DNA from: an uncultured Candidatus Saccharibacteria bacterium
GTDB taxonomy: Bacteria; Patescibacteriota; Minisyncoccia; Phycocordibacterales; CAIZLB01
NCBI GenBank assembly: GCA_964450605.1
Contig: CAYVEK010000001.1
Coordinates: forward strand, 143,933-207,932
Reading direction: 5' to 3'
DNA: 64,000 nt
The notes beneath the pieces are model-generated. The model ran no database searches and had not been told where the DNA came from. It saw nothing but the letters and a program-made list of their open reading frames with translations. Below are positions 2,291-57,779 of this stretch, in pieces (the first letter of the stretch is position 1; each line of letters starts with the position of its first letter). The position numbers and the translations under genes were made by a program.

Positions 2291-2302
2291 ACTACCCACC
2301 AT

Positions 2303-12696: not shown

Positions 12697-12760
12697 TTTT
12701 GTTTGTGGGCAAGGAGGGACTAGGTCCTTACAGGACCAGTATACCTTTGCCATATTCTCA
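12697..12760 (-). pseudogene. Pseudo-tRNA / duplicated 3' end of tRNA-Leu (25-nt exact repeat of the tRNA-Leu 3' end plus flank; T-arm missing)
   Basis: ttttgtttgtgggcaaggagggact at 12697-12721 is identical to 12878-12902 (last 16 nt of tRNA-Leu plus 9 nt of flank). Continues as an acceptor-like 5' strand and one hairpin but lacks a T-arm. Confidence 0.6.
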
Positions 12761-12886
12761 TATGCTCCGCATATTCGAATACAAGGCAAAGCTTTTCTCG
12801 TCCCTCACGGACATGCAACTATGCATGTCCTCTTGCCCAAACGAAAACAAGCATCCTCGCTTTCGCTCGGACACTTGTTTTGTTTG

Positions 12887-12969
12887 TGGGCAAGGAGGGA
12901 CTCGAACCCTCAACCCTTGCGGGACTAGTTCCTAAGACTAGCGCGTATACCAATTCCGCCACTTGCCCA
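12887..12969 (-). tRNA. tRNA-Leu (anticodon UAG), type II with long variable arm
   Basis: Manual fold: acceptor GGGCAAG/CTTGCCC, anticodon stem ctagt/actag with loop cTTAGga, variable hairpin tcccgcaaggg, T-arm gagggTTCGAGTccctc. Confidence 0.85.
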
Positions 12970-38036: not shown

Positions 38037-38108
38037 GGCCCTATCGTCTAACGGTTAGGACATCGGCTTCTCAAGCCGGTAATCGGGGTTCGATTCCCCG
38101 TAGGGTCA
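38037..38108 (+). tRNA. tRNA-Glu (anticodon CUC)
   Basis: Manual fold: acceptor ggcccta/tagggtc, anticodon stem tcggc/gccgg with loop ttCTCaa, T-arm cggggTTCGATTccccg. Confidence 0.8.
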
Positions 38109-38136
38109 CCTTCAACAGCTAGCACGAGTAGCATAC

Positions 38137-38172: not shown

Positions 38173-39708
38173 GTGCAAATTAGTCACAATAAGGTATCCT
38201 TATACCATATGTCTATAACCAAGACCGATTTTCTTACATGCTTAGATTGTCCCCAAAATGCATGGTTAAAAATACACCGACCAGATGTGTACAAGAAATA
38301 TCCACTCTCTTCTTTTGAATTAAATATAATAGATACGGGTAATTTGATCGATACTCTGGCTCGAGACTTGTTTCCTGGTGGTATAACAATCCAATCTCGT
38401 GACGACTTCGAACTCACAAAGAAATTAATAGCGGAGAGAACACCTGTGATTTATCAGCCTGTCTTTATTACAAATAAATTTACAGCTGTCTCAGATATTC
38501 TAGTGTGGAATTCTAAAACCAATCTGTATGATCTGTACGAGGTAAAGTCTTCTACTACTTCTGAAGAGAACGGAGGGCGGAAAACAGATGAATACATTGT
38601 GGATATGGCATTTCAAAAAAATGTATTAGATGAGCTTGGTATAAAAATTGGAACATTTAATCTTATTCGAATTAATAAAGAATATGTAAGATTTGGCAAT
38701 ATAGATGTAAGCAGACTTTTCTTAACTGAAAATTTAACAGATCAAGTTGAACAAGCATTGGAGGATGTTAAATTAAAGATGGAGGGTGCTTATGAATTTC
38801 TATCTAAAGAGGTTGAGCCAAAGGGACACTGTGAATGTATTTTTAAGAGTAAAAATTCTCATTGTACTACCTCTAAATACTCAAATCATGATATGCCCGA
38901 ATACTCGGTTCATTCAATATCTCGTATACACAAGAAAAAGCTAATTGATTTAGTTGAACAAGGTATCTTGAACATACATGATGTACCTAAAGATTTTGAG
39001 TTGTCAGAAAATCAAAGACGCCAAGTAGACACTGCTCAATCGGGTAAGGAATTTATTGATCAAAACGGAATATCACAATTTCTTCAAACAATGGAATATC
39101 CGCTAGCTTTTCTTGATTATGAGACTTATCCTTCAGCTATACCGAAATTTGACGGGTATAGTCCATATCAGCAAATTCCATTTCAGTTTTCACTTCATGT
39201 AATTGAATCTATTGGTGGAGATGTTATTCATCATGAATTTTTACACTTAAATGATAAGTGTCCAGATGAATATTTTGCTGATGCACTTGAGAAGTATTTA
39301 CCAAAAAATGGAAGCGTTGTTGTTTGGAATCAGAAATTTGAGAAAGGTATCAATGAACAGATTGGTAAGCATCTGCCAAATCGCGTGGATTTTATGGATT
39401 CAATAAATAGCAGAGTTGTCGACTTAATGATTCCTTTTTTTGGAAAAACAACAATGTACGATCACCCTCAATTTAAAGGTAGTGCCTCAATCAAGTACGT
39501 ATTACCTGCGTTAGTTCCCGAATTATCATATAATGATATGCATATTCAAGAAGGAGGTACAGCGTCAGATACATGGAACAAAATAGTCTCAAGTGAGTAT
39601 TCTGAAAGTGAAAAATTGATTAAAGAACAAGCTCTAAGAGATTACTGCAGACTTGATACTTTGGCGATGGTTGAGATTTGGAAGGTATTAACTAAATCTA
39701 TCCAGTAA
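38173..39708 (+). CDS. Cas4/RecB-like PD-(D/E)XK nuclease (4-Cys cluster) fused to a C-terminal DnaQ-like DEDD 3'-5' exonuclease domain (DUF2779-like architecture)
   Basis: N-terminal CLDC ... D-x-YEVK (PD-D/ExK) ... CECIFKSKNSHC Cys cluster; C-terminal FLDYETY (Exo I), VVWNQKFE (Exo II), YCRLDTLAM (Exo III-like). Confidence 0.5.
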   Translation: MQISHNKVSLYHMSITKTDFLTCLDCPQNAWLKIHRPDVYKKYPLSSFELNIIDTGNLIDTLARDLFPGGITIQSRDDFELTKKLIAERTPVIYQPVFITNKFTAVSDILVWNSKTNLYDLYEVKSSTTSEENGGRKTDEYIVDMAFQKNVLDELGIKIGTFNLIRINKEYVRFGNIDVSRLFLTENLTDQVEQALEDVKLKMEGAYEFLSKEVEPKGHCECIFKSKNSHCTTSKYSNHDMPEYSVHSISRIHKKKLIDLVEQGILNIHDVPKDFELSENQRRQVDTAQSGKEFIDQNGISQFLQTMEYPLAFLDYETYPSAIPKFDGYSPYQQIPFQFSLHVIESIGGDVIHHEFLHLNDKCPDEYFADALEKYLPKNGSVVVWNQKFEKGINEQIGKHLPNRVDFMDSINSRVVDLMIPFFGKTTMYDHPQFKGSASIKYVLPALVPELSYNDMHIQEGGTASDTWNKIVSSEYSESEKLIKEQALRDYCRLDTLAMVEIWKVLTKSIQ

Positions 39709-44662: not shown

Positions 44663-44730
44663 GAATTTACTTTACTTTATCAAATTTTGCCAATAAATAG
44701 TAGTTTAGTGTGTATTAGCGTCAATTTAGA

Positions 44731-46047
44731 TTAGATATAGATCTTCTTGTTTTTCAATCGTATGTTTGTATTCAAGCACCTCATAAATTCTCGCTTCTCA
44801 TCCATTGTCCCTTCGATTAGGATGAACTTGGCATAGTTCCGAATATCAATATCTTTCACCACCACAGTTGTCTTGGCACCAAGTAACATCTGCTCAAACT
44901 TCTTGAATCTTTGCACTTCAGCCGTGATCTTTTCTCTCATAGGCACTGTCTGTATCTCTAAATCGTCCATGAGGTCTTGTAGTTGGACAACAAGGTCTTC
45001 TTCATTGATGAATCCACATGGACAGTCTTGATCTCTCGTTCTTGTACATTTGTAGTATACATATCGGTTCATGTTACCGTTCTTCTGGTGCTTGAACTTT
45101 TCATCTGCCGTAATACCTGATCCACATAGTCCGCAAGTCATAATCTTGGTGAAGGCAAACTCCTTTTGTTGTGATCTTGGCTCGAGTATCTGACTTTTAA
45201 TCTTCTCCTGAACAAGATCAAACAATTCTTTCGTAATTATTGCTTTATGTGATCCGTTATACCAATTACCTGATTCTTTTGGAAACTCAAACCTGCCGTA
45301 GTAAAAGTGATTTTGGAATATTCTATAGAGATTTCCTAGACTTAGGTGGATATTATTCTCAGTCTTAAAGTTTATATCGTGCTTGAGCCATTGATATACC
45401 TTTCGTCCACTCCAACCATCGTAACCAATTTTCTCGAACATCTGCTTGATAATCGGTGCTCGTTCAGGATCTATGATGGATTCGCATTTTTGATCTATTC
45501 TTTTGTACTTTGTGTATCCAGTTGGTGGTTTACATGGCCACAAACCCATTTCAACTCTTGCCCGTAACCCTCGCTTCACGTTAATACTCTTATTGTCGTT
45601 CTCAAGTTTTGCTTGAGAACACAAGATCATCAGTAAGAATTTCTCATTAGGCGAATTAGAAAAAGTTTGTCCGTAGGTTTGTATATGAATTAACTTTCTT
45701 TGATCCATAAGATCAACAACGGCTCCGAGGTCTCCAGCGTTTCTTGAAAGTCTATCGGGTGCCCATGTGAGTATTCCGTTATATACACCTTTCGAAACCT
45801 CATTAAGTAGTTCTTTGAACACTGGTCGTTGTCCAGATTCTTTTGCAGAGTGAGATTCTCGTTTTATATCCACCACATTCAGTTTCAACCTTTCCGCAAT
45901 CGCTGTCATTTCTTTGATCTGAGAATCGATGGACAGGGCTTGCTGTTCATCTGATTCGGTTGATTTTCGGGCATATAGGCAATACTTAATCCTAGTTTCT
46001 GTTATTGATATATTGCTATGAATTTTGCCGATTACATTCGATTCCAT
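44731..46047 (-). CDS. Large serine recombinase (integrase)
   Basis: Catalytic YARKSTESDEQ...SIDSQ and DRLSRN motifs; recombinase domain; Zn-ribbon CGLCGS...C; 438 aa. Confidence 0.8.
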   Translation of the reverse strand: MESNVIGKIHSNISITETRIKYCLYARKSTESDEQQALSIDSQIKEMTAIAERLKLNVVDIKRESHSAKESGQRPVFKELLNEVSKGVYNGILTWAPDRLSRNAGDLGAVVDLMDQRKLIHIQTYGQTFSNSPNEKFLLMILCSQAKLENDNKSINVKRGLRARVEMGLWPCKPPTGYTKYKRIDQKCESIIDPERAPIIKQMFEKIGYDGWSGRKVYQWLKHDINFKTENNIHLSLGNLYRIFQNHFYYGRFEFPKESGNWYNGSHKAIITKELFDLVQEKIKSQILEPRSQQKEFAFTKIMTCGLCGSGITADEKFKHQKNGNMNRYVYYKCTRTRDQDCPCGFINEEDLVVQLQDLMDDLEIQTVPMREKITAEVQRFKKFEQMLLGAKTTVVVKDIDIRNYAKFILIEGTMDEKREFMRCLNTNIRLKNKKIYI

Positions 46048-46405
46048 ATATTAATTAATGACAGACCAGTCAGGGGTGCATAGCTATGCAAAATAGCCGA
46101 AACGTAGCATGGTCGTTTTGGCTATTAGCAAGGCTATATTTTGGCGTTATTATTAATCTAGAATAATAGATATGAAAATGCTATTATTCATTTACAACTA
46201 AATAAGGCGACCTAACCCTATGGAATAAACCCTATAGGTATGGTCATAAAGTCGATCAAGTGTAAAGAACCCGTCATGGGGTTTTGCTTGATCGCCGTAC
46301 TGGGAAACTGGTACGAAGGACTTCGGTCCTTACCCGTGGCGGGCTTTTTGTATACAACAAAATTCTCGCTAGGTTACAAATAATTTAAGCCGATCAAGCA
46401 AAATT

Positions 46406-47194
46406 ATGGCACTACTATCATTTATACAAAACATACTCACAAAACGTGAGGGTATTAAGCAATATCAGACTAATATCGTTGAATACCTTAAAGACGGAAA
46501 ACTGAGTCAGACAGAGAAAGATGATCTGAATAAAATAAAGCTCGAGTACGGTATCACAGATAAGGATCTACAAAATATTCATAAAATTCAGGCATCGGCA
46601 GTTTTTAATAATATTTCTTCAGATCAGCGCATAACAGAGGATGAAAAAGAATCTTTAAGTTTAATTCTGGATCACTTTGGTTTGTCTGTGAAAGACTTTG
46701 ATTTCAATCAAAAGAATTTTAATAAGTATTATGCGATGGCACTTATTGATAAAGGAATGCTTCCGACCGTTGATCCAGAGAACTTCAAAGTACCTGTCAT
46801 AATGAAAAGTGGAGAAATAATTCACTTTGGCAGTGAGGCGAACTTAGTTAAGGTAAAGAAAGTAATGGAAAAGATGTTCTATGGAGGTCTTTCTGGATCG
46901 ATAAAGATTATGAAAGGTATGCGGTATAGATGGGGTACTATAAAACCGACAATTGCACACAAAGAAGTTTCAGCTATTGAGGATTCAGGCGTACTTTACA
47001 TTACCAATCAAAGAATTGGTTTTATTGGGTCGCGTAAGCAATTTTCGGTTCTGTATAATAAGATATCAGGCTTTGAATTACGGGCTGATGGATTGTATAT
47101 ATTCAAAGATGGGAAAGAATTACCATATATTGTGACGCTTCAAGATTACGAGGTTCCGCTCTCAATAATTTCGTCGTTATTAAACGATAATTGA
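46406..47194 (+). CDS. Hypothetical protein (TerB-like N-terminus plus bacterial PH-like C-terminus)
   Basis: DGKLSQTEKDDLNKI (TerB-like); C-terminal YITNQRIGFIGSRKQFSVLYNKISGFEL resembling bPH_2; weak. Confidence 0.3.
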   Translation: MALLSFIQNILTKREGIKQYQTNIVEYLKDGKLSQTEKDDLNKIKLEYGITDKDLQNIHKIQASAVFNNISSDQRITEDEKESLSLILDHFGLSVKDFDFNQKNFNKYYAMALIDKGMLPTVDPENFKVPVIMKSGEIIHFGSEANLVKVKKVMEKMFYGGLSGSIKIMKGMRYRWGTIKPTIAHKEVSAIEDSGVLYITNQRIGFIGSRKQFSVLYNKISGFELRADGLYIFKDGKELPYIVTLQDYEVPLSIISSLLNDN

Positions 47195-47196
47195 CT

Positions 47197-48705
47197 TTAG
47201 AATATTTTATCTCTCAAACCGTAAGTGATAGGTCTGCATTCTTCATTTTGACTCAGCTCATTTCTAGGAAAAGGACTAGGTCTATCGTGGTTTAGTTTGG
47301 AGATGTAATTTATGGCAAGACTAAGTGCGTCTACGAGGTCATCATGAGACTCTGTTCCAAAACCAATGAGTTGAGTGATTAATTCTTCGTTGCCGTATTC
47401 AGAGAATAGTACTTTCCCAGACTGAATATATTGCGAAGCGAGCATGAGTCTTGTGGACTTGTCTAAACCACCTAAAGATACGCTTTCTGCAATAACACCT
47501 TCTGATTGCAACATCTGTGTCAGCCCTGATTGTGTACCTACACCCTCAACCAAAACCGTACATTTGGGATACTTGATCATGTTGATGTAAGTAGTTTTTA
47601 TCTTTTTGACTGTGTCGGGGAATATGAGTTTTTGATTTATTGGATTCGGCATGATACATATTTTTAAATCACTACCAAAACCAAATACCTGTGTCACTAC
47701 AATGCTTGTATAGTCTGATCTCGCATTTTGTGATACCGCCAAATCAACACTGATATATGTGGACTTATATGGATATTTCCTTTTTATATCTTCTAAGTTT
47801 TTATATCTTTTAATCCACTCGGGTTTTATGATCTGATCATCAGGGGGTAAGATGCGTAGTAGGTATTCCCGTTGCCAAGCAATCTCGTCTCCTACATGTT
47901 TTTTGTATACTTCTACATCATCTTTAGTCTTAAATTTCCCAGGCCAAAGGCATACACCGTCTTTTGTAATTAGCGGATATTCCTTAAATACACCCTCCAT
48001 TTCACCATTAGATATTTTTCTTTTTACTCGCATGAGTAGTGAATCGTCATGCAGGAGGTTTCCTAAGCATACGAATCTAGTATTTTCGTCACCAAGAGGT
48101 CTAATCTCACTCATAAACCATTGGTATGTTTTATCTCTACTTTCCTTGGTTTTACATGATTGGATATCTTCGATGTCATCACAAATAATCAGACTCGGTC
48201 GATGTTCAAGGTGTCTTGACCCTCTAATGCTTTGTTCAGAAGATATAGCAGTAATTCGTGCATTAAGCTTTGTAAACGTAAGCGAAAGAGCACCCCACTC
48301 ATCACTTTCTTCCTTAAATGGACCGAGATCGTTTTTTAATAAGCTATTTGTTTCTAGCTCGATTTTAATGTTTGCTAGGTGTTGTCGGGCCTGTATGCGT
48401 GTTTGTGAGACTATGAGAATATACTTTTCTTTTCTATATCCAAGAATTGACCATATTGGATAGGATGTAGTTAGAATTGTAGATTTAGCTGATCCTCTAA
48501 ATGCTATGAGATACATATTCTCAATACTGTCATTCTGTGTTAGTTCGAATATCTCTTTTTGGAAGTCTGCAGTTTCACTTTTGATGTAATGAGGAAAATA
48601 GAAATGGAAAAAAAGAATGTGACTTCGAGATGTAATTCCTATACGCACCTTAGGGTCTTTTGCCATAAGGGCGAAATCGTCATTATTAATCATTGCTTTC
48701 TTCAA
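47197..48705 (-). CDS. Phage terminase large subunit-like protein
   Basis: N-terminal ATPase with FRGSAKST Walker-A-like motif; C-terminal RNaseH-like nuclease with SHDDLVDALS; ~500 aa. Confidence 0.6.
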   Translation of the reverse strand: MKKAMINNDDFALMAKDPKVRIGITSRSHILFFHFYFPHYIKSETADFQKEIFELTQNDSIENMYLIAFRGSAKSTILTTSYPIWSILGYRKEKYILIVSQTRIQARQHLANIKIELETNSLLKNDLGPFKEESDEWGALSLTFTKLNARITAISSEQSIRGSRHLEHRPSLIICDDIEDIQSCKTKESRDKTYQWFMSEIRPLGDENTRFVCLGNLLHDDSLLMRVKRKISNGEMEGVFKEYPLITKDGVCLWPGKFKTKDDVEVYKKHVGDEIAWQREYLLRILPPDDQIIKPEWIKRYKNLEDIKRKYPYKSTYISVDLAVSQNARSDYTSIVVTQVFGFGSDLKICIMPNPINQKLIFPDTVKKIKTTYINMIKYPKCTVLVEGVGTQSGLTQMLQSEGVIAESVSLGGLDKSTRLMLASQYIQSGKVLFSEYGNEELITQLIGFGTESHDDLVDALSLAINYISKLNHDRPSPFPRNELSQNEECRPITYGLRDKIF

Positions 48706-49084
48706 TTTTATCTGTGAATAATTTTGATGAGTTTAAAACTCTTTCGATTGCTTCTGCTTGTTCAGGGGTAAGTTCCTGACCCTGATGTTTGGTAGTCAGC
48801 TCAATCCTGTTTCTATACTTTGGACTTCTGCTAGAAAGCCAAAACCTAAGTGCAGGGAAGCTTTTTTCTTTTATGAGATTTAATAGTTGTGTTTCACTCA
48901 TGTCACTTATGAATTCCTCTCCCTCAATCATTGCCGAATGCATTTGAGCCTCAAATTCTTTATCCTCGTGTTTCCAGCGATAGATTGTGTTTCGAGATAA
49001 ATTTGATTGCTCACAAGCTACTTGAACTATTGGCACTTTCTTGAGACTTTCAAGAAATTTAGTTTTGTTTCTATTTTTCTTCAT
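48686..49084 (-). CDS. Small HTH protein, terminase small subunit-like
   Basis: HTH VACEQSNLSRNTIYRWK; overlaps the terminase large subunit start (operon). Confidence 0.4.
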   Translation of the reverse strand: MKKNRNKTKFLESLKKVPIVQVACEQSNLSRNTIYRWKHEDKEFEAQMHSAMIEGEEFISDMSETQLLNLIKEKSFPALRFWLSSRSPKYRNRIELTTKHQGQELTPEQAEAIERVLNSSKLFTDKIEESND

Positions 49085-50342
49085 GGTGAATAACTTGAGG
49101 ATTAATTCCGGTTAGTCTGATAAAACGTTTGATAATAAGGTCACAAAATACAGGCTCTTTTTCACAACCAAAGACTTTTCGACCTAACTGTTCACCTGCC
49201 AAGAGAGTACTACCAGATCCTAAGAAACTATCTAAAATAATGTCATTAGGCTTAGTACAGCGTTTGATAGCTTTTTCATGTAAACTTACAGGTTTGCTTG
49301 TTGCATGTTCCATGTCCTTGCCACTCAGTCTCTTTGTGAGCCATAGATCTATTTGATCATGTAGGTTGTTTCCTGTGGTCATGTCTCTGTTTACAACCTC
49401 GTTATTGGTATTTATGTTGTGAGTTAAATATGGTTTATTTCTCACTCCGTAGACGCAAGGTTCATAACATTTGTTGAATGCAACTCCTGGGGTAGGGTTC
49501 TGGGAGTTCTTTATCCATAGGCAAACACGCTTGTTCTCTATACCGAGTTTTCTATAGAGTTCCTGAATAACTCCTATATATACTTGATCACACCAGTAAA
49601 ATACATGAATATCTTCATGAGAGACTGCAAGTGCGGCTTCCATACTCTTACACAGAAAATCTTTATACTCATCAAATCCTCGACTATCACACACAGCGCC
49701 TCCATAAGATCTTTTACCTCCAATACCTCCATTGTAATCGATGTTGATGTTGTAGACTGGGTCAGAATAGATCATTGATACTCTTTCATTACCGCAGAGT
49801 TTCTGGACAACCTTAGGGTCAGTTGAATCTCCACAGATAATCCTGTGCTTTCCTAAAATTATAATATCTCCAGTTTTTGTTTTAGGTTCTTTGATTTTTT
49901 CTAGCTCTTTAGTAACATCAAATTCATCGTCTTTAGCCTCTAATTCTTTATCCCAAAATTCTGATAGCTCTATTGATTCAAAACCTGATTCCAGAAGCAT
50001 TCCGACATCAAAGGATTTGAGTTTGTCGGTGTCCCAAGTTCCACCCAATTTATTGCTTGATATTAGGTATTGTTCATATTCTTGATCAGTTAGTCTTCTG
50101 TTCGGTACTCGTACATCTATCATTTCTTCGCCTCGGTTTAATGCGAGCAACACCTTTAGTCTCTGATGTCCTGCAACAATTTTCCCGTCTGTGTCTACAA
50201 CAGGTATTTCAACGAGATTAAACTTTTTAAAACTCTTCGTTAGGTCAGCGAGTTGTTTCTGGTTGATTTTTCTTGGATTTTTGTCGTACGGTAAAAGTTC
50301 TGATACTTTTCTTTTTTCATTGTGCCATTCTAATTTTTCCAT
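49071..50342 (-). CDS. ParB-like nuclease domain fused to DNA methyltransferase (N6-adenine/N4-cytosine, beta-class)
   Basis: ParB N-domain PYDKNPRKI...AGHQRLKVL; catalytic SDPVYN (DPPY); AdoMet motif I ILDSFLGSGST. The ORF could extend to 50426 (alternative start). Confidence 0.7.
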   Translation of the reverse strand: MEKLEWHNEKRKVSELLPYDKNPRKINQKQLADLTKSFKKFNLVEIPVVDTDGKIVAGHQRLKVLLALNRGEEMIDVRVPNRRLTDQEYEQYLISSNKLGGTWDTDKLKSFDVGMLLESGFESIELSEFWDKELEAKDDEFDVTKELEKIKEPKTKTGDIIILGKHRIICGDSTDPKVVQKLCGNERVSMIYSDPVYNINIDYNGGIGGKRSYGGAVCDSRGFDEYKDFLCKSMEAALAVSHEDIHVFYWCDQVYIGVIQELYRKLGIENKRVCLWIKNSQNPTPGVAFNKCYEPCVYGVRNKPYLTHNINTNNEVVNRDMTTGNNLHDQIDLWLTKRLSGKDMEHATSKPVSLHEKAIKRCTKPNDIILDSFLGSGSTLLAGEQLGRKVFGCEKEPVFCDLIIKRFIRLTGINPQVIHHEEK

Positions 50343-50689
50343 ATATTTTTTATGATTATTGTTTATATATAGAGAACACAAAACACCATACGAGATGTAT
50401 GGTGTTTGCTTGTACACGCAATACATCGAGATGATAAATAACCAGTCTTGTTTTATGAGACTAGTAACTTATGACCTAGATTTATTGCAGGTTGTGTTTA
50501 TAAATCAATCTTCACTTTCATTGGATGTTGTCCTTATGAATGTGAAGACATTGATCGAAAATCTGTTCTTTTTGTTTCGGATATTGTCCATTCGACAAAA
50601 AGGGTGGCAAAGATTGATCTGAGGAATTGTGTAGTTGTAGAGTTCTCCTGTTGGTATTGTAGGTTGCCAGCATATTTAAAGTCAAGCAC

Positions 50690-51669: not shown

Positions 51670-52137
51670 ATGAATAAATTAATAATACATAAAATTCAAT
51701 CGAATTCAGAAAAAGATTCTGATTATTCTGAATACTTGTCTAGTATAAAAAAGACGTTCAAGGAAATACCTTGGATTAACAAGATCGAAGGACTTTATTC
51801 TGAAATCTATTTTCTGTACTTAGATTCAAAATTTGTAGCCGGTGTAACTTTGTTTGAAAAGTGCCCTGAAGATATTAAGATTACAGAAAAAGCAGATAAC
51901 TTGTTTGGTAACTTTGTATTTGCATCTTGTTTGTACGTAAAACCAGAATACAGGAATAAAGGTTACGGATATAAACTACTTAAAAAGGCTATATTAGACA
52001 CTGTGTCTAGAGGTGCTAAATTTATAGGTATTGTTGATAATACTAATCAAAAACTTATTGATTCCTATAAGAAAAACTTTTTAGTAAAGATTGTTGCTAT
52101 AAATTCTAAGATATCTTTTATTGAATTTATAAAATAG
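51670..52137 (+). CDS. GNAT family N-acetyltransferase
   Basis: Motif A LYVKPEYRNKGYGYKLLKKAI. Confidence 0.65.
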   Translation: MNKLIIHKIQSNSEKDSDYSEYLSSIKKTFKEIPWINKIEGLYSEIYFLYLDSKFVAGVTLFEKCPEDIKITEKADNLFGNFVFASCLYVKPEYRNKGYGYKLLKKAILDTVSRGAKFIGIVDNTNQKLIDSYKKNFLVKIVAINSKISFIEFIK

Positions 52138-52271
52138 TAAGAGGACTACGCACGAGAAGGGTCGTTGTGCTATCATAAAAACATTAAAAATAACCTTACC
52201 CAGCAACGAACCAAAAGGTTCTATCTGCTGAAGGCTCACACATATCGTGAGCGGAGCGAACAATTAACAGC

Positions 52272-52353
52272 GTGACCCTAAGCGATGTGTCTGCACACAT
52301 CGCGTCAGGGAATCGAAAAGCTTTTCTATGTTTTGAGAATCCCTTGGATTCGA
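52272..52353 (+). repeat. Structured direct repeat, copy 1 (conserved scaffold A-V-B-C)
   Basis: gtgaccctaagcg / 16-nt variable palindromic segment atgtgtctgcacacat / cgcgtcagggaat / cgaaaagcttttctatgttttgagaatcccttggattcga. Blocks A and C are near-identical to 55967-56095. Confidence 0.7.
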
Positions 52354-52681
52354 CAAAACAAGAAAAGATGTACAGGTCCTGTAAGGATCGATTCCTGTGT
52401 AGGGTTACCAAATTAGATTTCTCAGTAATATTTTCTTGATGTAGCTTATAAAGTAAGTATGATTCATAGGTTCCAAACTTTTCCTCGTCAAAATTAGTTT
52501 TGATAGAAAAACTTGATTTTGTACCGTTTCTGTCCGATTTGTCCGGTTTTGACCCCGATTTTTGTGCAATTTGTGCATTTTCAACCTTTAAGATGAGGAT
52601 GCAGTGGTATAGTTCACTAACCTTAAAATTAGATATTTTGTCTACGTCGTCAGAGAGGGTCTTTTGTGATAATCTTATACC

Positions 52682-54610
52682 ATGAATATAAGCGAAGTCC
52701 ATATCAAAAACTATCGATCAGTAAAGGACGAAAAGATATACTTTAGCCCAAAGTGTCGAATTTTGGTTGGTATCAATGAGTCAGGAAAGACAAATATTTT
52801 GAATGCTCTGGCTTTAATTGACCAATCAAGAAAAACAACTATCGCAGATAAACGGGAGCCTCTTAGAGGCGAGGATGAAATTGATGAGTCTTTTGTGAGA
52901 TTCTTTTTCACTCTTGATGAGGAAGAAAAGAAGAAAGTCGTTGAAGATATGAAGTCATCAGTTCTTTCAAAATCGATTGAAGAGCCGGTGATTAATTTGC
53001 TTGGAAAAGACTATTCTTTTGAAAGTTTTTTACTTCATAAAAGATATTTCTATGAAGTGAACATTCTCAAAACATCAAAACAGCCAATGCATTTTCTTAT
53101 CAATTCCGATAAACCAAAGGTTTCTAATAAATGGAAGAAGATTAGCGAATCTTGCCCTGAAGATTTGATGGTTGATGTCGATGGGATGAAGGTTGCGGTA
53201 AAGAGCTATAAATTTGTTCATGCTAGTGATTACCCTGAAATCCCATCTGAACATTTGGCAGAGATCGGTCATGAAGAATTAAATAAGTTTGTAGGTGGGA
53301 AGGTTACAACGCATATGGGTACCAATCTACATAAGGTTATTTACTGGGATTATGAAGAATCGAAGATTCTACCATCAAGAGTTCCTCTTCAGGATTTTAC
53401 TAATGATCCGGAAATTTGTATTCCTCTTAAACGTATGTTTGAACTTAAGGGTATTGAAGATATAAAAGGTGCAATTGAGAACGCACAAAAGGCCGGGGGT
53501 AAATCTTTAGATAACCTACTCGGAAGAATAGCCGATCAGACTTCAAAGTATTTCCATGATACCTGGAAAGAATATGACAATATAAATTTTTCTCTGAAAA
53601 CTAACGGTGCCGATATAGAAACATCGATCCAGGATAAATCGAATAGTTTTGATTTTACACAAAGAAGTGACGGTTTCAAAAGATTTGCTACTTTCTTGCT
53701 CATTGTTTCCGCAAGAGCAGAGACGGATGCATTAAAAAACAACCTTATCTTGATCGATGAACCGGAGATAGGTCTTCACCCAAAAGGAGCAAGGTATTTA
53801 CGAGATGAACTTATCAAGATCTCTAAAGAGAATTATGTTGTATTCTCTACACATTCAATATTTATGATTGATAATAAACTCATAGATAGACACTTGTTGG
53901 TTAAGAAAGAAGATGAAGTTACCTCAACTAAAAATGCTGATCCTTCAAATCTTCTGGAGGAAGAGGTGTTGTATCAAGCGTTGGGGCATTCTATTTATTC
54001 TCACTTACATGAGAAAAATATTGTTTTTGAAGGTTGGCACGACAAACAATTGTTTAATTTAGCAATTGATTATTCAAGAGCGCCTGCGGGGTATGCTGGC
54101 CTTAAACAACTCTTTGAAGGTGTCGGTTTAACCTACGCACAAGGAGTTAGTGATATTAAGTACATAACTCCGCTTTTTGCTTCAGGTAATCGAAAATGCT
54201 TAATACTTACTGACAACGATGATCCTGCGAAGAATGCACAGAAGGATTTCAAAAATACTCACGGTTTTGGTAACTGGAAGCGATATCCTGAGGTCGAATC
54301 AACACTCACAGCTTTTACGGGTGAAGATTTTATAAAACACACCGCTTTTGTTCCAATACTTGAAAAAATAAAATCAGACAACGGATACGCTGTTGATGTA
54401 CCGGATCTCTCTACTGCAAGTGCGGGCGGTAAAGGTAAGGTGTATGTTATAAAGCAATGGTTTATTGCAAATGGGGTGACTGGAGATGACTTAAGGGCAG
54501 CGATGAAGAATTTTAAAGATACACTTTTTACAACAATTTTGCATTCCGACATTGAAGCAGACTATTTTACATACCTTCAACAGGTCGGTGGTTTGATTGC
54601 GGGTATGTAA
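52682..54610 (+). CDS. OLD-family (overcoming lysogenization defect) ATPase-TOPRIM nuclease
   Basis: N-terminal ABC-type ATPase GINESGKTNILNAL (Walker A), LILIDEPEIGLHP (Walker B / D-loop), STHS (H-loop); C-terminal TOPRIM with IVFEGWHD (catalytic Glu) and LILTDNDD (DxD). Confidence 0.75.
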   Translation: MNISEVHIKNYRSVKDEKIYFSPKCRILVGINESGKTNILNALALIDQSRKTTIADKREPLRGEDEIDESFVRFFFTLDEEEKKKVVEDMKSSVLSKSIEEPVINLLGKDYSFESFLLHKRYFYEVNILKTSKQPMHFLINSDKPKVSNKWKKISESCPEDLMVDVDGMKVAVKSYKFVHASDYPEIPSEHLAEIGHEELNKFVGGKVTTHMGTNLHKVIYWDYEESKILPSRVPLQDFTNDPEICIPLKRMFELKGIEDIKGAIENAQKAGGKSLDNLLGRIADQTSKYFHDTWKEYDNINFSLKTNGADIETSIQDKSNSFDFTQRSDGFKRFATFLLIVSARAETDALKNNLILIDEPEIGLHPKGARYLRDELIKISKENYVVFSTHSIFMIDNKLIDRHLLVKKEDEVTSTKNADPSNLLEEEVLYQALGHSIYSHLHEKNIVFEGWHDKQLFNLAIDYSRAPAGYAGLKQLFEGVGLTYAQGVSDIKYITPLFASGNRKCLILTDNDDPAKNAQKDFKNTHGFGNWKRYPEVESTLTAFTGEDFIKHTAFVPILEKIKSDNGYAVDVPDLSTASAGGKGKVYVIKQWFIANGVTGDDLRAAMKNFKDTLFTTILHSDIEADYFTYLQQVGGLIAGM

Positions 54611-54633
54611 CTGTTCATTATTTATATAAACCT

Positions 54634-54930
54634 ATGCAAGAAATCTTTATTCATGTCTGTGGTGTGGTTTTAGGAGCCATTGTTCTCAGATTGCTTGGTT
54701 TACATAAAAAAGTTGTTGTTCACACCAACCACGTTCAAGTTAGTATAATTTGGAAAGTATTAAAAAGTCTAGGAAAGTTTTGTTTTTTCTATGGCTTATT
54801 TGTTTTTCACATAAATTTGCTGGTGACAGGGGTTGAATCACCAAATGTCGGCATTGGTGTAACCATTTTGACCTTAGGTTTCTTTGCGTGGGTGATCGGC
54901 TCCATTACTTTTTTTATTAAAGGAAACTAA
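54634..54930 (+). CDS. Small integral membrane protein (3 predicted TM helices), co-operonic with the OLD nuclease
   Basis: Hydrophobic helices VCGVVLGAIVLRLLGL, FCFFYGLFVFHINLLVTGV, IGVTILTLGFFAWVIGSITFFI; 23-bp gap from the OLD gene. Confidence 0.5.
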   Translation: MQEIFIHVCGVVLGAIVLRLLGLHKKVVVHTNHVQVSIIWKVLKSLGKFCFFYGLFVFHINLLVTGVESPNVGIGVTILTLGFFAWVIGSITFFIKGN

Positions 54931-54932
54931 GG

Positions 54933-55781
54933 ATGAATCAGATTGAAGAATCTATTTTTTCAATTCAAATAGGCTTATTAAACAGGGCTCAGAATCTACT
55001 TGAAGATAGGATAAGTCAATTAGAGGTTTTTGAAAGATCGAAAGAGTTCACTTCAAATGACGCTTCTGAGAAAGCCGCGTGCGTTGGAGTTTTCAAGATT
55101 AGATCTGCCAAGTTTTTTAGAGATACTCTTTCATATTTAATATCTGAATCAGCAAGAACCGAGCCAAAGGTACATTTTTTTATGTTGCCAAATATAAGAG
55201 CACTAACGAATGTACATGCTAACTTTTTACATCTTCTAGAGTCCGGTAATGAAGATAAACAGGCGTTGATTTGTATTGCATACCAGCTACTTACAATGAA
55301 AGATCTACAAAACGACGTTGAATACGCAAAAGTATTGGATATGAATAAAAATTTCCTTGCAACCCAATCGGTTGTCTTTCCAGCCTCACCTGCAGACTTT
55401 AGTTACAAATGGATGCAAAAGCAGAAGCTGACCTTGGGTAGAATGGATCAATTACTTGAGTCTGATGTGGTTAAAAAATATTCTTCAAATGTTGTAGCTG
55501 TTTTTATGCCGAAAGAACAGTATCGCATATATTCTACTCTTTCAGAATTTTTACATGGAAATCCATATTATTATGATGACAATCCTCACAACGAGAGATT
55601 TTGGATTGTTGCGTTTTCAATATCCATTACTGCTTTCCTGATTGAAATTATTGATACTTATTTTTTAAATAAGATAAACCCTAGAGACTTCAGGGTGTGG
55701 CTACTTGATGTAAAAAGACAGCGGGGTGATTTTTCAAATCTTTGGAAGTCGAAAGCGCATACAGGTAAGATTTCGACTTAA
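54933..55781 (+). CDS. Hypothetical protein with C-terminal TM helix, third gene of the OLD operon
   Basis: 2-bp gap from the upstream gene; TM helix FWIVAFSISITAFLIEIIDTYFL near the C-terminus; no known motif. Confidence 0.45.
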   Translation: MNQIEESIFSIQIGLLNRAQNLLEDRISQLEVFERSKEFTSNDASEKAACVGVFKIRSAKFFRDTLSYLISESARTEPKVHFFMLPNIRALTNVHANFLHLLESGNEDKQALICIAYQLLTMKDLQNDVEYAKVLDMNKNFLATQSVVFPASPADFSYKWMQKQKLTLGRMDQLLESDVVKKYSSNVVAVFMPKEQYRIYSTLSEFLHGNPYYYDDNPHNERFWIVAFSISITAFLIEIIDTYFLNKINPRDFRVWLLDVKRQRGDFSNLWKSKAHTGKIST

Positions 55782-55928
55782 TAGTGAGTTCTGATATAAA
55801 GTGGTAGTTTATTTATTTTAGACAAAGCCTTTTGAGACTTCTACCTGTAAAGATAAAGCAAGCATTCTCCACTGGCTAAGCTTATAAACTAAAGAGTTCC
55901 AATTCTGTTCCACTTGGGTCACAGTCAC

Positions 55929-55963
55929 AAAAAAGAGCTCCGGCGTCAGCTGGAGCTTTTTTG
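55929..55963 (+). terminator. Rho-independent terminator (bidirectional-like)
   Basis: aaaaaa-gagctcc-ggcgtcagc-tggagctt-tttt. Confidence 0.6.
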
Positions 55964-55966
55964 TCT

Positions 55967-56095
55967 GTGACCCTAAGCGGGCAAACAGCTTTACTCGCGT
56001 CTGGGTGAACCTTCGAAGAAGGTGTAGGGCCAGAGCACGACAGTGCGAGGTATGCCGAAAAGCTTTTCTATGTTTTGAGAATCTTTTGGATTCGA
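55967..56095 (+). repeat. Structured direct repeat, copy 2 (same scaffold with a different 16-nt variable segment and a 46-nt insertion)
   Basis: gtgaccctaagcg / ggcaaacagctttact / cgcgtctgggtgaa / 46-nt insert / cgaaaagcttttctatgttttgagaatcttttggattcga. Confidence 0.7.
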
Positions 56096-56231
56096 GATAT
56101 TTTTTCCAAGCCAAATTCAAATATTAAAAATGAAGTCATGTGGCAGTATAATCCATGGGGGAGAGTCGACGGTATCAAAGGTCCTGTAGATTTGAATGTG
56201 TTAAAATAAAAACATCAGTATTAATATACCT

Positions 56232-57032
56232 ATGCAATCCCTCGAAACCATAATCCAAAAACTTGAACAAAAACCTGAAGTCGACGCTGTATTTTTAACT
56301 GGTTCTATAGGTAACAACACCTCTACTGCTGATAGTGATATAGACCTGATTATTATTCTTAAAGACAATACCCAAGGCATCGAATCAATCTTTACATGGA
56401 TCGATGGGGTATTTGCCGATATCTACTTTTTTGATCTGGAAAACATTAAAAGCATTATTGAAAGTAATACTCTCTCAAGTGAATCAGGCCATATGTCAGA
56501 TAAAATGAATCATCTACTCTATGTCTGGCTTAAAAAAGGAGAGATTCGATTTGATAAATCAGGCGAACTGACAAAGCTGAAATCAATGGAAAAAGAATTG
56601 GTTCCTGTGTCCGAGCAAAAGAAATGGAATTCATGGGTGAATACCAATTATAATTTCGAAGCAAATACCAGATATTTTAATGCAAAAGATTCAAAATACC
56701 ACGAAGCTTTGGAGATGAGGCTACTTTACTCCGTTATACAGGTTATATGCACATATTTTGATTTTATTGGAGAACAGTGGAGAGGTGAAAAGCTAGCGAT
56801 AACATATCTCAAAGAACACGACCTTGATTTCTATGAGATGTTTATTCGATATACAAAGGCTACAAATCTCGGAGAGAGGTTTACAGAATACAGTGTGATG
56901 GTTCATAGGGTGTTTGAACTAAATCCAAAATATCCGCTATGGAAAAAAGATGAGATTATACCGAAGTCGCAAAGGGGTGGGTTTGAAATTGATAATAACT
57001 TGTTAAACATTTGGAATGGGCTAATCTCTTAG
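56232..57032 (+). CDS. Nucleotidyltransferase-domain protein (ANT(6)/Lnu-like architecture: minimal NTase plus helical C-terminal domain)
   Basis: LTGSIGNNTSTADSDIDLIIIL = G-S-x(n)-D-x-D motif of the Pol-beta-type NTase fold at the N-terminus; ~180-aa C-terminal extension. Confidence 0.6.
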   Translation: MQSLETIIQKLEQKPEVDAVFLTGSIGNNTSTADSDIDLIIILKDNTQGIESIFTWIDGVFADIYFFDLENIKSIIESNTLSSESGHMSDKMNHLLYVWLKKGEIRFDKSGELTKLKSMEKELVPVSEQKKWNSWVNTNYNFEANTRYFNAKDSKYHEALEMRLLYSVIQVICTYFDFIGEQWRGEKLAITYLKEHDLDFYEMFIRYTKATNLGERFTEYSVMVHRVFELNPKYPLWKKDEIIPKSQRGGFEIDNNLLNIWNGLIS

Positions 57033-57035
57033 TAT

Positions 57036-57779
57036 ATGACCAAAGAAAAACTCATTCAAAACTGCCAAAAGCTACTCGAAGCATATAAAAACGGTGATCT
57101 CGGTCAAACCATCATGCCGGAAGATAGTAGTCCTAAATTTAAAAAGGGTGATGAGGAATTAAGGTACACTTACTTTAGTTTACCTATGGCATTAAACTAC
57201 CAACGAGATAGTTATACACTCTGGAAGTCTGCACTAAAAACATTTGAAGACAGAGAAACATCTTTTGTATTCGATGTTCGCAAAGTAGCAAAGTCTTCTG
57301 AGGGAGTTGTGAGAAAAGCGCTTACAAAACACAAACTTGCTTTACAACCAAATAAACATATACAAACATGGATTACGATCGCACGAACGATTTCAGAAAA
57401 TTGGGGAAGTTTTACAAAGACGTTTAAGGCAACAAATGGGGACTTTCTCTTACTTAAGGACATGGTCACTGTGAAATATAAGAAAGGGTTTCCATACCTG
57501 TCTGGACCAAAGATATTTAACTACTGGTCGTTCATTATGAGTACATACGGAAATGTAAAGCTATCAAATCGATCATATATAGATATTGCACCCGATACAC
57601 ATATTACCCAGTGTTCTGTAAAACTCGGAGTGATTACTCAAAGAGAATCAGATACTCTTACAAAAGAAGAAATATCTAAAAGGTGGCGAGACTTGTTAGA
57701 TGGTACTGACATAGATCCTATAGATATGCATCCGCCTTTATGGTTTTGGAGTAGGAATGGGTTTGTGTATAAATTGTAA
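57036..57779 (+). CDS. Hypothetical protein immediately downstream (4-bp gap) of the NTase; weak HhH-GPD/AGOG-like GPKI motif
   Basis: Tight coupling to the upstream gene; FPYLSGPKIFNYW faintly resembles glycosylase HhH segments; not confident. Confidence 0.3.
   Translation: MTKEKLIQNCQKLLEAYKNGDLGQTIMPEDSSPKFKKGDEELRYTYFSLPMALNYQRDSYTLWKSALKTFEDRETSFVFDVRKVAKSSEGVVRKALTKHKLALQPNKHIQTWITIARTISENWGSFTKTFKATNGDFLLLKDMVTVKYKKGFPYLSGPKIFNYWSFIMSTYGNVKLSNRSYIDIAPDTHITQCSVKLGVITQRESDTLTKEEISKRWRDLLDGTDIDPIDMHPPLWFWSRNGFVYKL

What the first reader, a model, noticed from the sequence alone, without database searches (positions are those of the whole stretch)
52272..56095. OLD-family nuclease operon with two membrane/unknown partners, bracketed by a structured direct repeat
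A 642-aa OLD-family ATPase+TOPRIM protein (52682-54610) is followed at 23-bp and 2-bp gaps by a 98-aa 3-TM membrane protein and a 282-aa protein with a C-terminal TM helix. Neither resembles the helicase (GajB), HNH (PtuB) or TOPRIM-only (AriB) partners of described OLD-class systems. The three-gene block is flanked in direct orientation by two copies of an ~80-130-nt GC-rich element (52272-52353 and 55967-56095). Membrane partners suggest an effector arm similar to abortive-infection systems. The flanking repeats suggest a mobile cassette or an RNA component.
Basis: partly seen in the sequence, partly recalled or inferred. Interest (0 to 1): 0.85.

Follow-up and report, generated by a model that had tools for sequence, protein, structure and literature searches.

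The report
OLD gene between tRNA-mimic repeats
The OLD nuclease is an ordinary stand-alone defence gene with two unrelated neighbours, but the repeat on both sides of it is a previously undescribed structured element of Patescibacteria that sits behind tRNA genes, copies their 3' end, and marks a spot where foreign DNA inserts.

Summary
The ORFs, the gaps between them and the repeat are real. The three-gene "OLD plus membrane partners plus RNA" system is not supported.

- **OLD protein (642 aa).** It belongs to a large family (>1000 relatives of about 635 aa). The ATPase and TOPRIM catalytic residues are invariant. The downstream gene differs in each of six contexts examined.
- **98-aa ORF.** It is an orphan: the only match among 5.8 billion proteins is itself.
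- **282-aa protein.** It belongs to a rare all-alpha family with distant links to DUF5677. Relatives were found in seven other loci, none with an OLD gene.
- **The repeat.** It is two copies, one complete and one 3'-truncated, of a ~135-165-nt element found in 44 Patescibacteria species. It usually lies 22-61 nt downstream of tRNA-Glu.
  - Its 5' strand is complementary to the last 19 nt of that tRNA gene (mean 18.2 of 19), and its 3' end repeats them.
  - Its internal hairpins covary strongly (93% paired; 33 of 37 pairs show double changes).
  - No Rfam family matches it.
  - A third copy in the window follows tRNA-Leu and mimics that tRNA instead.

The OLD block is best read as one small insert in a tRNA-Glu accessory island. 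What the element does is not known.

The parts
52272..52408 (+). Copy 1 of the tRNA-linked structured element, complete. It comprises P1 (the tRNA acceptor-stem mimic), P2 (9-bp hairpin, loop CUGC), P3 (the tRNA T-stem mimic), the long hairpin P4 and P5 (hairpin, loop GUA). Its 3' end GTAGGGTTAC imitates the tRNA-Glu 3' end.
   Evidence: Covariance model R1 scores 128.4 bits, E 1e-28, over the full model. The fold has z -5.6.
55967..56095 (+). Copy 2 of the element, 3'-truncated. It has the 5' module, an extra ~47-nt domain and the first half of P4. It lacks the P4 3' strand, P5 and the tRNA-like 3' end.
   Evidence: It aligns with the intact element of L030, which has the same extra domain, up to 56095 and is unrelated after that. 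R1 gives only a partial hit of 29.5 bits.
12705..12840 (-). Third family member, directly downstream of tRNA-Leu(UAG). Its P1 and P3 strands match the tRNA-Leu 3' end instead of tRNA-Glu.
   Evidence: R1 scores 81.5 bits, E 3e-17. A 25-nt exact direct repeat links 12697-12721 and 12878-12902 (D8).
38037..38110 (+). tRNA-Glu(CUC) gene. In related genomes it is the usual anchor of the element. Here about 18 kb of accessory DNA follows it.
   Evidence: ARAGORN and Rfam calls; sequence.
52682..54610 (+). OLD-family nuclease, 642 aa: an ABC-type ATPase fused to a TOPRIM domain, of the stand-alone (class 1-like) type.
54634..54930 (+). 98-aa orphan ORF with three hydrophobic segments. An open frame of this length is unlikely by chance at 36% G+C, so it is probably a real gene (inference). 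No homologue is known.
54933..55781 (+). 282-aa all-alpha globular protein of a rare family with distant links to DUF5677. Elsewhere it is found as a single gene in defence and toxin-antitoxin neighbourhoods.
52400..52408 (+). TAGGGTTAC, the acceptor 3'-strand copy at the end of copy 1. It is the left boundary of the OLD insert.
   Evidence: Compare TAGGGTCAC at the tRNA-Glu end, 38101-38109.
55914..55922 (+). TTGGGTCAC, preceded by CCAC. It is the right boundary of the OLD insert. The same end type (agaCCACTTTGGGTCAC) precedes elements in L014 and L041.
55917..55973 (.). Long palindrome: GGGTCACAG, then a terminator-like hairpin, then CTGTGACCC. It joins the end of the insert to the first bases of copy 2. 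It is the same arrangement as the tRNA / hairpin / element junction in other genomes.
44731..46047 (-). Large serine recombinase of the island between tRNA-Glu and copy 1. It is a candidate enzyme for insertions at this site.
   Evidence: Pfam Resolvase, Recombinase and Zn_ribbon_recom. Relatives occur in L013 and L016.
46209..46331 (+). LOOT RNA (RF03000), lying divergently next to the serine recombinase gene.
   Evidence: 77.3 bits against a gathering score of 46.4.

Best explanation
The window comes from a Patescibacteria (Paceibacteria/Parcubacteria-type) genome. About 18 kb of accessory DNA has accumulated downstream of tRNA-Glu(CUC).

**The OLD block.** The OLD gene is a self-sufficient, class 1-like OLD nuclease: an ATP-driven TOPRIM DNA nuclease that acts alone. 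It was carried in as cargo of a ~3.5-kb insert. The 98-aa orphan and the 282-aa DUF5677-like gene are independent neighbours, not subunits.

**The repeat.** The 'structured direct repeat' is two copies of a tRNA-linked element that is native to this phylum.
- It is most likely a small RNA transcribed in the tRNA sense.
- Its two ends rebuild the acceptor-stem/T-stem helix of the upstream tRNA.
- Its conserved core (P2 with loop CUGC, P4, a GGUAUACUG linker, P5 with loop GUA) binds an unknown partner.

**Why the block sits between two copies.** The 3' end of the element duplicates the tRNA 3' end, so it offers a second copy of the attachment core that islands targeting the tRNA use. Inserts therefore land at the tRNA end or at an element end, and end up bracketed by elements.

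**Shown:** gene identities, the lack of conserved partners, the element family, its covariation and its link to tRNAs, and the clustering of breakpoints.
**Inferred:** that the element is an RNA, that a site-specific recombinase makes the insertions, and that OLD acts in defence.
For: **OLD**
- Domains and invariant catalytic residues are present.
- More than 1000 relatives exist.
- The downstream neighbour varies: MazG-like, a 173-aa membrane-anchored protein, an AAA_33 protein, nothing, nothing, a 266-aa protein.

**Small genes**
- The 98-aa protein is an orphan.
- The 282-aa family has 108 cluster representatives, and 20 of 74 members hit DUF5677.
- Relatives in seven other loci have no OLD nearby. 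One lies behind a Fic / methylase / AIPR / GmrSD block.
- In L003 the gene starts 60 nt after an element, with no OLD in between.

**Element**
- It occurs in 44 species.
- In 28 loci it lies 22-61 nt after tRNA-Glu, and its 5' strand pairs with the last 19 nt of that tRNA at 18.2 of 19 on average. Six T-stem variants are all compensated.
- On 49 sequences, 93.1% of cells pair and 33 of 37 pairs show double changes. The covariation score is 0.475 against at most 0.089 when the partners are slid.
- P2 and P5 are more than 99% paired.
- G-U pairs outnumber A-C pairs 33 to 12, and 12 to 0 in P2 plus P5, which favours the tRNA-sense strand.
- The loops are conserved: CUGC in 47 of 49 and GUA in 37 of 49.
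- There is no Rfam match.
- Leu- and Val-linked versions exist.

**Hot spot**
- Sixteen elements are intact, and about 13 lose identity 0-3 nt after the T-stem strand.
- Cargo blocks ending in ...TAGGGTCAC recur.
- The NTase downstream of copy 2 is 78% identical to the gene downstream of the tRNA-Glu element in L030.
- An OLD relative lies in another tRNA-Glu(CUC) island with serine recombinases.
Against: - There are no expression data, so transcription of the element is unproven. No room for a separate promoter is evident between the upstream hairpin and the element.
- The G-U versus A-C bias is modest outside P2 and P5.
- The alignment used for the pair counts was fitted to the model.
- The 5' strand of the element pairs better with the upstream tRNA gene than with the element's own 3' end. 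This could point to a DNA-level or precursor-level role instead.
- Most loci carry no recombinase near the element, and the OLD block itself has none.
- The left boundary of the OLD block lies after the full acceptor copy, not at the commonest breakpoint.
- Two of six OLD contexts (this window and L051) have a small membrane protein immediately downstream. A loose functional link therefore cannot be excluded.
- Only seven and six contexts could be examined.
Confidence: 0.6

Rival explanations
1. OLD, the 98-aa membrane protein and the 282-aa protein form one new abortive-infection system, and the flanking repeat is its RNA component or its own mobility signal.
For: The three genes are tightly packed on one strand, with gaps of 23 and 2 nt. 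The 98-aa protein has three hydrophobic segments. A 46%-identical OLD relative is also followed at 2 nt by a small membrane-anchored protein, although the two are not homologous.
Against: - The 98-aa protein has no homologue.
- Relatives of the 282-aa protein are never next to OLD (0 of 7 loci), and OLD relatives are never next to them (0 of 6 contexts).
- The 282-aa protein is modelled as a soluble globular bundle.
- The repeat occurs in 44 species behind tRNA genes, mostly with housekeeping or unrelated cargo.
Confidence: 0.07
2. The element works as folded single-stranded DNA or as a double-stranded attachment site, not as RNA. It would be an attC-like or CTX-phage-attP-like site. Its P1/P3 helix reproduces the duplex of the tRNA gene end, so that a recombinase inserts and stacks gene cassettes behind tRNA genes. 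This would amount to an integron-like platform in Patescibacteria.
For: - The 5' strand matches the tRNA gene end almost perfectly and tracks its variants.
- The P2 hairpin sits exactly opposite the position where breakpoints cluster.
- Elements in direct orientation bracket 1-3-gene blocks here and in L012, L022, L045 and L009.
- The variable distal domain resembles the variable terminal structure of attC sites (from my own knowledge of integrons).
- Serine recombinases are present in some islands.
Against: - Loop sequences and single-stranded linkers are conserved across genera, which a structure-only site does not need.
- Most genomes have a single element with no cargo between it and the tRNA.
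- No recombinase recurs beside the elements.
- No match to the integron core consensus is visible in the sequence, and no integron-type integrase was seen.
- The excess of G-U over A-C fits any single strand, RNA or DNA, so it does not decide between them.
Confidence: 0.2
3. The copies are only decaying leftovers of past integrations (attR scars carrying a duplicated tRNA 3' end) with no function of their own.
For: Copy 2 is truncated. Many elements are cut at their 3' end and degenerate fragments lie nearby in L029, L037 and L047. Duplication of the tRNA 3' end is typical of island scars (established knowledge of tRNA-targeting integrases).
Against: Scars do not keep nine- and five-pair hairpins more than 99% paired through many compensatory changes, nor invariant loops, across 44 species. 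The element also holds the same position behind the tRNA where no island is present, for example in L018 between tRNA-Glu and tRNA-Ser.
Confidence: 0.08

Closest known systems
Class 1 OLD nucleases (phage P2 Old type, single-gene)
   Same: An N-terminal ABC-type ATPase is fused to a C-terminal TOPRIM domain with the conserved Glu and DxD residues. The best PADLOC model is 'Old'. There is no conserved partner gene.
   Different: Sequence similarity to the one solved OLD structure found (6p74) is weak and local (E 6e-5). The clade is of environmental/Patescibacteria type, and defence activity is untested.
Gabija (GajA/GajB), retron-linked OLD proteins (Eco8 type), and PARIS (AriA/AriB) and Septu (PtuA/PtuB), whose ATPases resemble OLD
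   Same: The ATPase part hits the GajA, PtuA, AriA and retron Eco8 effector models.
   Different: There is no helicase, HNH, reverse transcriptase or separate TOPRIM gene next to it. Here the TOPRIM domain is fused to the ATPase.
tRNA-mimicking small RNAs (the tRNA-like domain of tmRNA, bacterial YrlA, the MALAT1 mascRNA)
   Same: The two ends of the element rebuild an acceptor-stem plus T-stem helix identical in sequence to that of a real tRNA. The rest of the tRNA is replaced by other domains.
   Different: - There is no T-loop, anticodon arm or free CCA-type end.
- The mimicked tRNA is whichever gene lies just upstream (Glu, Leu or Val).
- ARAGORN and Rfam do not recognise it.
Attachment sites of islands that integrate into tRNA gene 3' ends, and their tandem accretion
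   Same: The tRNA 3' end appears as a direct repeat at block boundaries. Several small blocks are stacked behind one tRNA. Recombinase-bearing islands occupy the same tRNA.
   Different: The repeated unit carries a conserved, covarying ~100-nt structured core. It is present even where nothing is inserted.
Integron attC sites and the folded single-stranded attP of CTX phage
   Same: It is a structured site of variable length that flanks promoterless-looking small cassettes in direct orientation. Its stem imitates the duplex target site.
   Different: No integron integrase and no core-site consensus were found. Primary sequence is conserved in the loops. Single-stranded DNA recombination is untested.
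LOOT RNA (Rfam RF03000)
   Same: Both come from the same group of bacteria (from memory, the name refers to lineages OD1, OP11 and TM7; I could not check this). LOOT also brackets an OLD-bearing island in L051 and lies beside serine recombinase genes. Its 5' module, GACC-UAA-hairpin-GGUC, looks superficially like the GAC-CCUAAG-hairpin-C-GUC of the element.
   Different: The LOOT model does not match the element even at E up to 10. LOOT shows no tRNA-end mimicry.

Membership tests
OLD family nuclease | N-terminal ABC-type ATPase with Walker A, Walker B and H-loop | tested here: met
   Pfam AAA_15 (3.9e-26) and AAA_21. GINESGKTN at 30, IDEPE at 358 and H391 are invariant in 20 relatives.
OLD family nuclease | C-terminal TOPRIM domain with a conserved Glu and a DxD motif | tested here: met
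   The PADLOC Old and GajA models align to residues 315-542. E450-G451 and D511-x-D513 are invariant. No Pfam TOPRIM model hits this protein directly.
OLD class 1 (single gene) | No conserved partner gene | tested here: met
   Six contexts of relatives have six different downstream arrangements, and none holds a homologue of the 98-aa or 282-aa protein. The sample is small.
Gabija (OLD class 2) | Adjacent UvrD/PcrA-like helicase GajB | tested here: not met
   The neighbours have no helicase domain and no PADLOC hit.
Retron-associated OLD (class 3) | Adjacent reverse transcriptase and msr-msd RNA | tested here: not met
   No reverse transcriptase lies within 52-58 kb. Rfam finds no retron RNA.
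PARIS (AriA/AriB) | ATPase and TOPRIM nuclease encoded as separate genes | tested here: not met
   Both domains lie in one 642-aa protein.
Any Rfam 15 RNA family | Score at or above the family's gathering threshold | tested here: not met
   Nothing matches at the repeats in the window or at intact elements in 14 loci.
tRNA / tmRNA | Cloverleaf with T-loop and anticodon arm, or tag reading frame with an alanine-type G3-U70 acceptor | tested here: not met
   ARAGORN calls neither. The third acceptor pair is C-G and there is no T-loop.
Genome-wide REP-like intergenic repeat | Many dispersed copies with no link to particular genes | tested here: inconclusive
   The 64 kb hold three copies, all tied to a tRNA or its island. 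Other genomes show 1-3 copies in the stretches fetched, mostly right behind tRNA-Glu. The full source genome was not available.
Integron attC site | Inverse core and core sites (RYYYAAC / GTTRRRY) and a nearby integron integrase | tested here: not met
   The element ends are GTGACCCTA / TAGGGTCAC. No tyrosine recombinase family appears among the recurrent cargo families. The recombinases seen are of the serine type.
Pfam DUF5677 | Match to PF18928 | tested here: inconclusive
   The window protein itself does not match. Twenty of 74 family members do, with a best E-value of 9e-9.
HEPN-domain toxins | Four-helix HEPN fold with an Rx4-6H motif | tested here: inconclusive

The most novel reading that the evidence does not exclude
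The element is a new class of tRNA-linked structured nucleic acid in Patescibacteria. It copies, and pairs with, the 3' end of whichever tRNA gene precedes it. It acts as the recombination platform on which small accessory and defence cassettes such as this OLD block are captured and stacked. This would be functionally an integron-like system anchored on tRNA genes, or else an RNA that controls or exploits the maturation of its neighbouring tRNA.
Probability: 0.3. Interest if true: 0.85.

Novelty: new variant of a known kind. Interest (0 to 1): 0.6.

Why it matters
For defence-system discovery this is a caution. Tight spacing and flanking repeats suggested a new multi-gene OLD system, but comparative context shows a stand-alone OLD gene with chance neighbours.

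The lasting value is the repeat. It is a strongly covarying, ~140-nt element that has not been catalogued and is widespread in a phylum with tiny genomes and little non-coding DNA. Its ends track the sequence of the adjacent tRNA gene. It could explain how accessory genes accumulate behind tRNA-Glu in these uncultured bacteria. It also gives RNA biologists a well-defined new motif to test, and gives annotators a marker for variable regions in Patescibacteria genomes.

Tried and rejected
- **Rfam.** Gathering threshold on the whole window, E-value mode on 52000-56300, and gathering threshold on 14 loci with intact elements. Only tRNAs and LOOT were found.
- **Viral contig scans.** Four patterns (two forms of the 5' module, the P5 region, and the tRNA-Glu 3' end) gave no hit, so no phage-borne copy was found.
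- **blastn of the 52140-52681 spacer against phage records.** No match.
- **Exact look-up of the window proteins in assemblies.** Not on record, so the source contig could not be extended and the organism could not be named. Cluster look-up returned no accession.
- **Weak third copy at 50556-50595 (65% identity).** Rejected, because the covariance model does not find it.
- **Profile search against PDB sequences.** Nothing.
- **Pfam census of 142 ORFs downstream of the elements.** It showed no recurrent integrase or defence family, only a mix of housekeeping and small accessory genes.
- **Readings considered and dropped.** tmRNA, SRP RNA, 6S RNA, RNase P RNA, hammerhead-type ribozymes, a retroviral-type primer-binding site (the complement stops before CCA), split tRNAs, and tRNA introns. 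A 2025 preprint on group I introns in Patescibacteria tRNAs (10.1101/2025.07.03.662931) concerns anticodon-loop insertions, not this element.
- **Metagenome scan with the 74-sequence alignment.** The scan with the 5-sequence alignment gave only four loci.

Full report
**1. Observation**

The three ORFs are as described: 52682-54610 (642 aa), 54634-54930 (98 aa) and 54933-55781 (282 aa), all on the plus strand, with gaps of 23 and 2 nt.

The repeat is real.
- A 28-nt block is identical at 52314 and 56056. None of 100 shuffles produced even one match.
- GTGACCCTAAGCG occurs at 52272 and 55967.
- Both regions fold much better than shuffled sequence on either strand (z -4.7 to -6.1).
- They are richer in G+C (0.45-0.57) than the ~0.36 background.

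**2. The OLD protein**

- Pfam places AAA_15 and AAA_21 over residues 1-397.
- The best PADLOC model is 'Old' (4e-32). It aligns to residues 315-522, reaching the TOPRIM region. GajA, PtuA and AriA models also hit the ATPase.
- More than 1000 relatives of about 635 aa exist at 40-59% identity, in Paceibacterota, Microgenomates, Nitrospirota and many metagenomes.
- In 20 of them Walker A (G30-K36), IDEPE (358-362), H391, E450-G451 and D511-x-D513 are invariant.

I looked at six genomic contexts of relatives. The gene downstream was:
- a MazG-like gene after 148 nt (59% relative, L049);
- a 173-aa protein with an N-terminal hydrophobic helix after 2 nt (L051);
- an AAA_33 protein (L061);
- nothing for 633 nt (L062);
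- nothing for 337 nt (L063);
- a 266-aa protein (L064).

tblastn finds no relative of the 98-aa or 282-aa protein in any of these loci. This is the pattern of a single-gene, class 1-type OLD nuclease. The class scheme and the nuclease mechanism are from my own knowledge of the OLD literature. Defence activity is inferred, not shown.

**3. The two small genes**

*The 98-aa protein.* It has three hydrophobic segments. It has no homologue other than itself among 5.8 billion proteins.

*The 282-aa protein.*
- The word-indexed database holds four relatives. An exhaustive profile search finds 108 cluster representatives.
- Twenty of 74 aligned members reach Pfam DUF5677. None reaches a PADLOC model convincingly.
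- With the 74-sequence alignment AlphaFold gives a confident compact all-alpha model (pLDDT 95.9, pTM 0.92). The hydrophobic stretch 222-245 is an internal helix in this model, so a membrane anchor is unlikely.

*Contexts of relatives.*
- Behind an HTH / Fic / EcoRI-type methylase / AIPR / GmrSD block (L001 and L057).
- Behind a 224-aa membrane protein and a 40-aa ORF (L002).
- Next to a SocA/Panacea-like pair, judged by eye (L059).
- Directly 60 nt downstream of a copy of the repeat, with no OLD in between (L003).

No OLD or 98-aa homologue occurs in any of these loci. The trio is therefore not a conserved system.

**4. What the repeat is**

Downstream of the L002 relative I noticed the same GTGACCCTAAG, followed by a hairpin with compensatory changes. 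A pattern built from the three instances found 44 loci in 44 species genomes, all Patescibacteria MAGs. Viral contigs gave none.

*Link to tRNA-Glu.* ARAGORN shows that the element usually lies just downstream of tRNA-Glu (UUC or CUC). A terminator-like palindrome separates them. Often tRNA-Ser(CGA) and tRNA-Val(GAC) follow 0-4.5 kb later.

*Architecture*:
- P1: GUGACCCUA pairs with UAGGGUCAC.
- One A.
- P2: nine pairs, loop CUGC.
- GU.
- P3: CCGGG(AAUCG) pairs with (CGAUU)CCCGG.
- A variable long hairpin, P4.
- A GGUAUACUG-like linker.
- P5: five pairs, loop GUA.
- The 3' strands of P3 and P1.

The 3' strand is the same sequence as the last 19 nt of the tRNA-Glu gene: the end of the T-loop, the 3' strand of the T-stem, the 3' strand of the acceptor stem, then A73 and C74.

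*Complementarity to the tRNA.* In 28 loci the 5' strand of the element is complementary to the adjacent tRNA's last 19 nt, with a mean of 18.2 Watson-Crick pairs, and 15 loci are perfect. Six different T-stem variants are each matched.

*Other tRNAs.* A covariance model built from 12 intact copies finds 49 strong matches. One is a third copy in this window at 12705-12840 on the minus strand. It lies right behind tRNA-Leu(UAG). Its P1 and P3 are built from the tRNA-Leu 3' end instead, and it keeps the same A and GU junction bases and the same core. A 25-nt exact repeat links it to the tRNA. Val-linked copies exist in L018 and L038.

*Covariation*:
- 93.1% of cells pair.
- 33 of 37 pairs show changes on both sides.
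- The covariation score is 0.475, against at most 0.089 when the partners are slid.
- 0 of 500 shuffles reach the observed values.
- P2 is 99.8% paired and P5 99.5% paired, and every pair in both covaries.

One caveat applies: the alignment was fitted to the model. However, an independent MAFFT/RNAalifold run on 12 sequences gave the same helices, with 20 of 37 pairs compensated.

*Which strand folds.* G-U pairs outnumber A-C pairs 33 to 12 in helices 2-7, and 12 to 0 in P2 plus P5. The folded strand is therefore the tRNA-sense strand.

*Rfam.* No Rfam 15 family matches.

**5. The two copies around OLD**

- Copy 1 (52272-52408) is complete (128 bits).
- Copy 2 has an extra ~47-nt domain after P3. 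The intact element of L030 has the same domain, with compensatory changes. Copy 2 is homologous only as far as 56095 and then diverges, so it is 3'-truncated.
- The nucleotidyltransferase gene after copy 2 is 78% identical to a gene downstream of the tRNA-Glu(CUC) element in L030. Copy 2 therefore looks like the resident element of this locus.
- The 17.9 kb between the tRNA-Glu gene (38037-38110) and copy 2 looks like added DNA.
- That DNA holds a DUF2779 protein, a 1654-aa DUF4011 / helicase / REase protein, a large serine recombinase next to a LOOT RNA, a terminase-like gene and a ParB-methylase.
- It also holds small NDT-like, NUDIX and GNAT genes, copy 1 and the OLD block.
- The P3 5' strand of neither copy matches the resident tRNA-Glu T-stem exactly. 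This fits copies that have drifted or arrived with foreign DNA.

**6. Evidence for a recombination hot spot**

- Sixteen elements have an intact TAGGGTCAC end. About 13 lose all similarity 0-3 nt after the T-stem strand (CCCGG|T...), which is a tight cluster of breakpoints.
- Behind the elements, blocks of 1-3 genes end in ...TAGGGTCAC with recurring end types. One type, agaCCACTTTGGGTCAC, occurs in L014 and L041 and at 55910-55922 here. Another, GGTTCTATCT...CCCTCAC, occurs in L037, L015 and L044 and upstream of copy 1.
- The OLD block is bounded by TAGGGTTAC (52400-52408) and TTGGGTCAC (55914-55922).
- Cargo between elements elsewhere consists of small accessory genes: DUF6864, Ham1-like, DUF5680, NUDIX and NYN.
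- Over 142 ORFs no integrase or defence family recurs.
- In L051 a 46% OLD relative again lies in an island that starts at tRNA-Glu(CUC). That island holds two serine recombinases and two LOOT RNAs in direct orientation on either side of the OLD block.

**7. Interpretation**

*Most likely reading.* The element is a native small RNA of tRNA-sense polarity. Its ends reproduce the acceptor/T-stem helix of the upstream tRNA. Its tRNA-like 3' end doubles as an attachment core for incoming DNA. The OLD block is one such insert.

*What remains open.*
- Whether the element acts as RNA or as folded or duplex DNA.
- Why its 5' strand is tuned to the neighbouring tRNA gene more closely than to its own 3' end.
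- Which enzyme makes the insertions.

An attC-like or CTX-attP-like single-stranded DNA role is a serious rival. A pure scar is unlikely, given the covariation.

**8. Verdict**

The OLD 'operon' is an ordinary new member of a known family with unrelated neighbours. The flanking repeat is the finding of interest: an uncatalogued, phylum-wide, strongly covarying tRNA-linked element.

Noticed in passing
window 46209-46331 (+); L051 4813-4932 and 12762-12892: LOOT RNA (RF03000) lies divergently about 160 nt from the start of a large serine recombinase gene, both in the window and in L051. In L051 two LOOT copies in direct orientation bracket the block that holds the OLD relative. LOOT may therefore be tied to serine-recombinase islands rather than being a free-standing sRNA.
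   Followed up: partly
window 12705-12840 (-), next to tRNA-Leu 12886-12968 (-): A tRNA-Leu-linked member of the same element family. A 25-nt exact direct repeat of the tRNA-Leu 3' end plus flank links 12697-12721 and 12878-12902.
   Followed up: yes
window 38110-38132: The sequence CTTCAACAGCTAGCACGAGTAGC directly follows tRNA-Glu here. In L030, L025, L021 and L040 a similar sequence follows the 3' end of the element instead. It looks as if the spacer and element had been lost, or moved, by recombination between the two tRNA-end repeats.
   Followed up: partly
window 38173-50426: An island behind tRNA-Glu. It holds a DUF2779 protein, a 1654-aa DUF4011 / SF1-helicase / REase_MTES_1575 protein, a large serine recombinase, a terminase large-subunit-like gene with a small HTH gene, and a ParB-like N6/N4 DNA methylase. 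It may be a degraded prophage or a phage-inducible island with its own defence genes.
   Followed up: partly
window 56232-57779: A nucleotidyltransferase (Polbeta/NTP_transf_2, with a weak MntA-like match) is followed at 3 nt by a 247-aa protein with a faint DUF2400 match. This may be a toxin-antitoxin-like pair. The first gene is 78% identical to a gene behind the tRNA-Glu element of L030.
   Followed up: partly
L008 178-300, L010, L035 and L038 (downstream or upstream of elements): A second, G+C-rich structured sequence (...CGCGACCGGCGCGAGGCGGGGTCGCG..., ending in TTGTGACCAC) recurs next to the elements in several genomes. It may be another element type in the same arrays.
   Followed up: no
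L051 4932-4999 and 5592-5659: A 68-nt direct repeat (90% identity) flanks the 200-aa gene that lies between the first LOOT RNA and the OLD relative.
   Followed up: no
L049 293-565 versus 376-2217: In the closest OLD relative (59% identity) the first ~30 codons are in a different frame from the rest of the gene. This is either a frameshift (pseudogene) or an assembly error.
   Followed up: no
window 3716-3933 and 8897-9006: Tandem in-frame DNA repeats of 35-44 nt lie inside ORFs, suggesting repetitive surface-protein-like segments.
   Followed up: no
window 2001-4000 and 11001-12000: These patches have G+C of 0.47-0.51 against a background of about 0.37.
   Followed up: no
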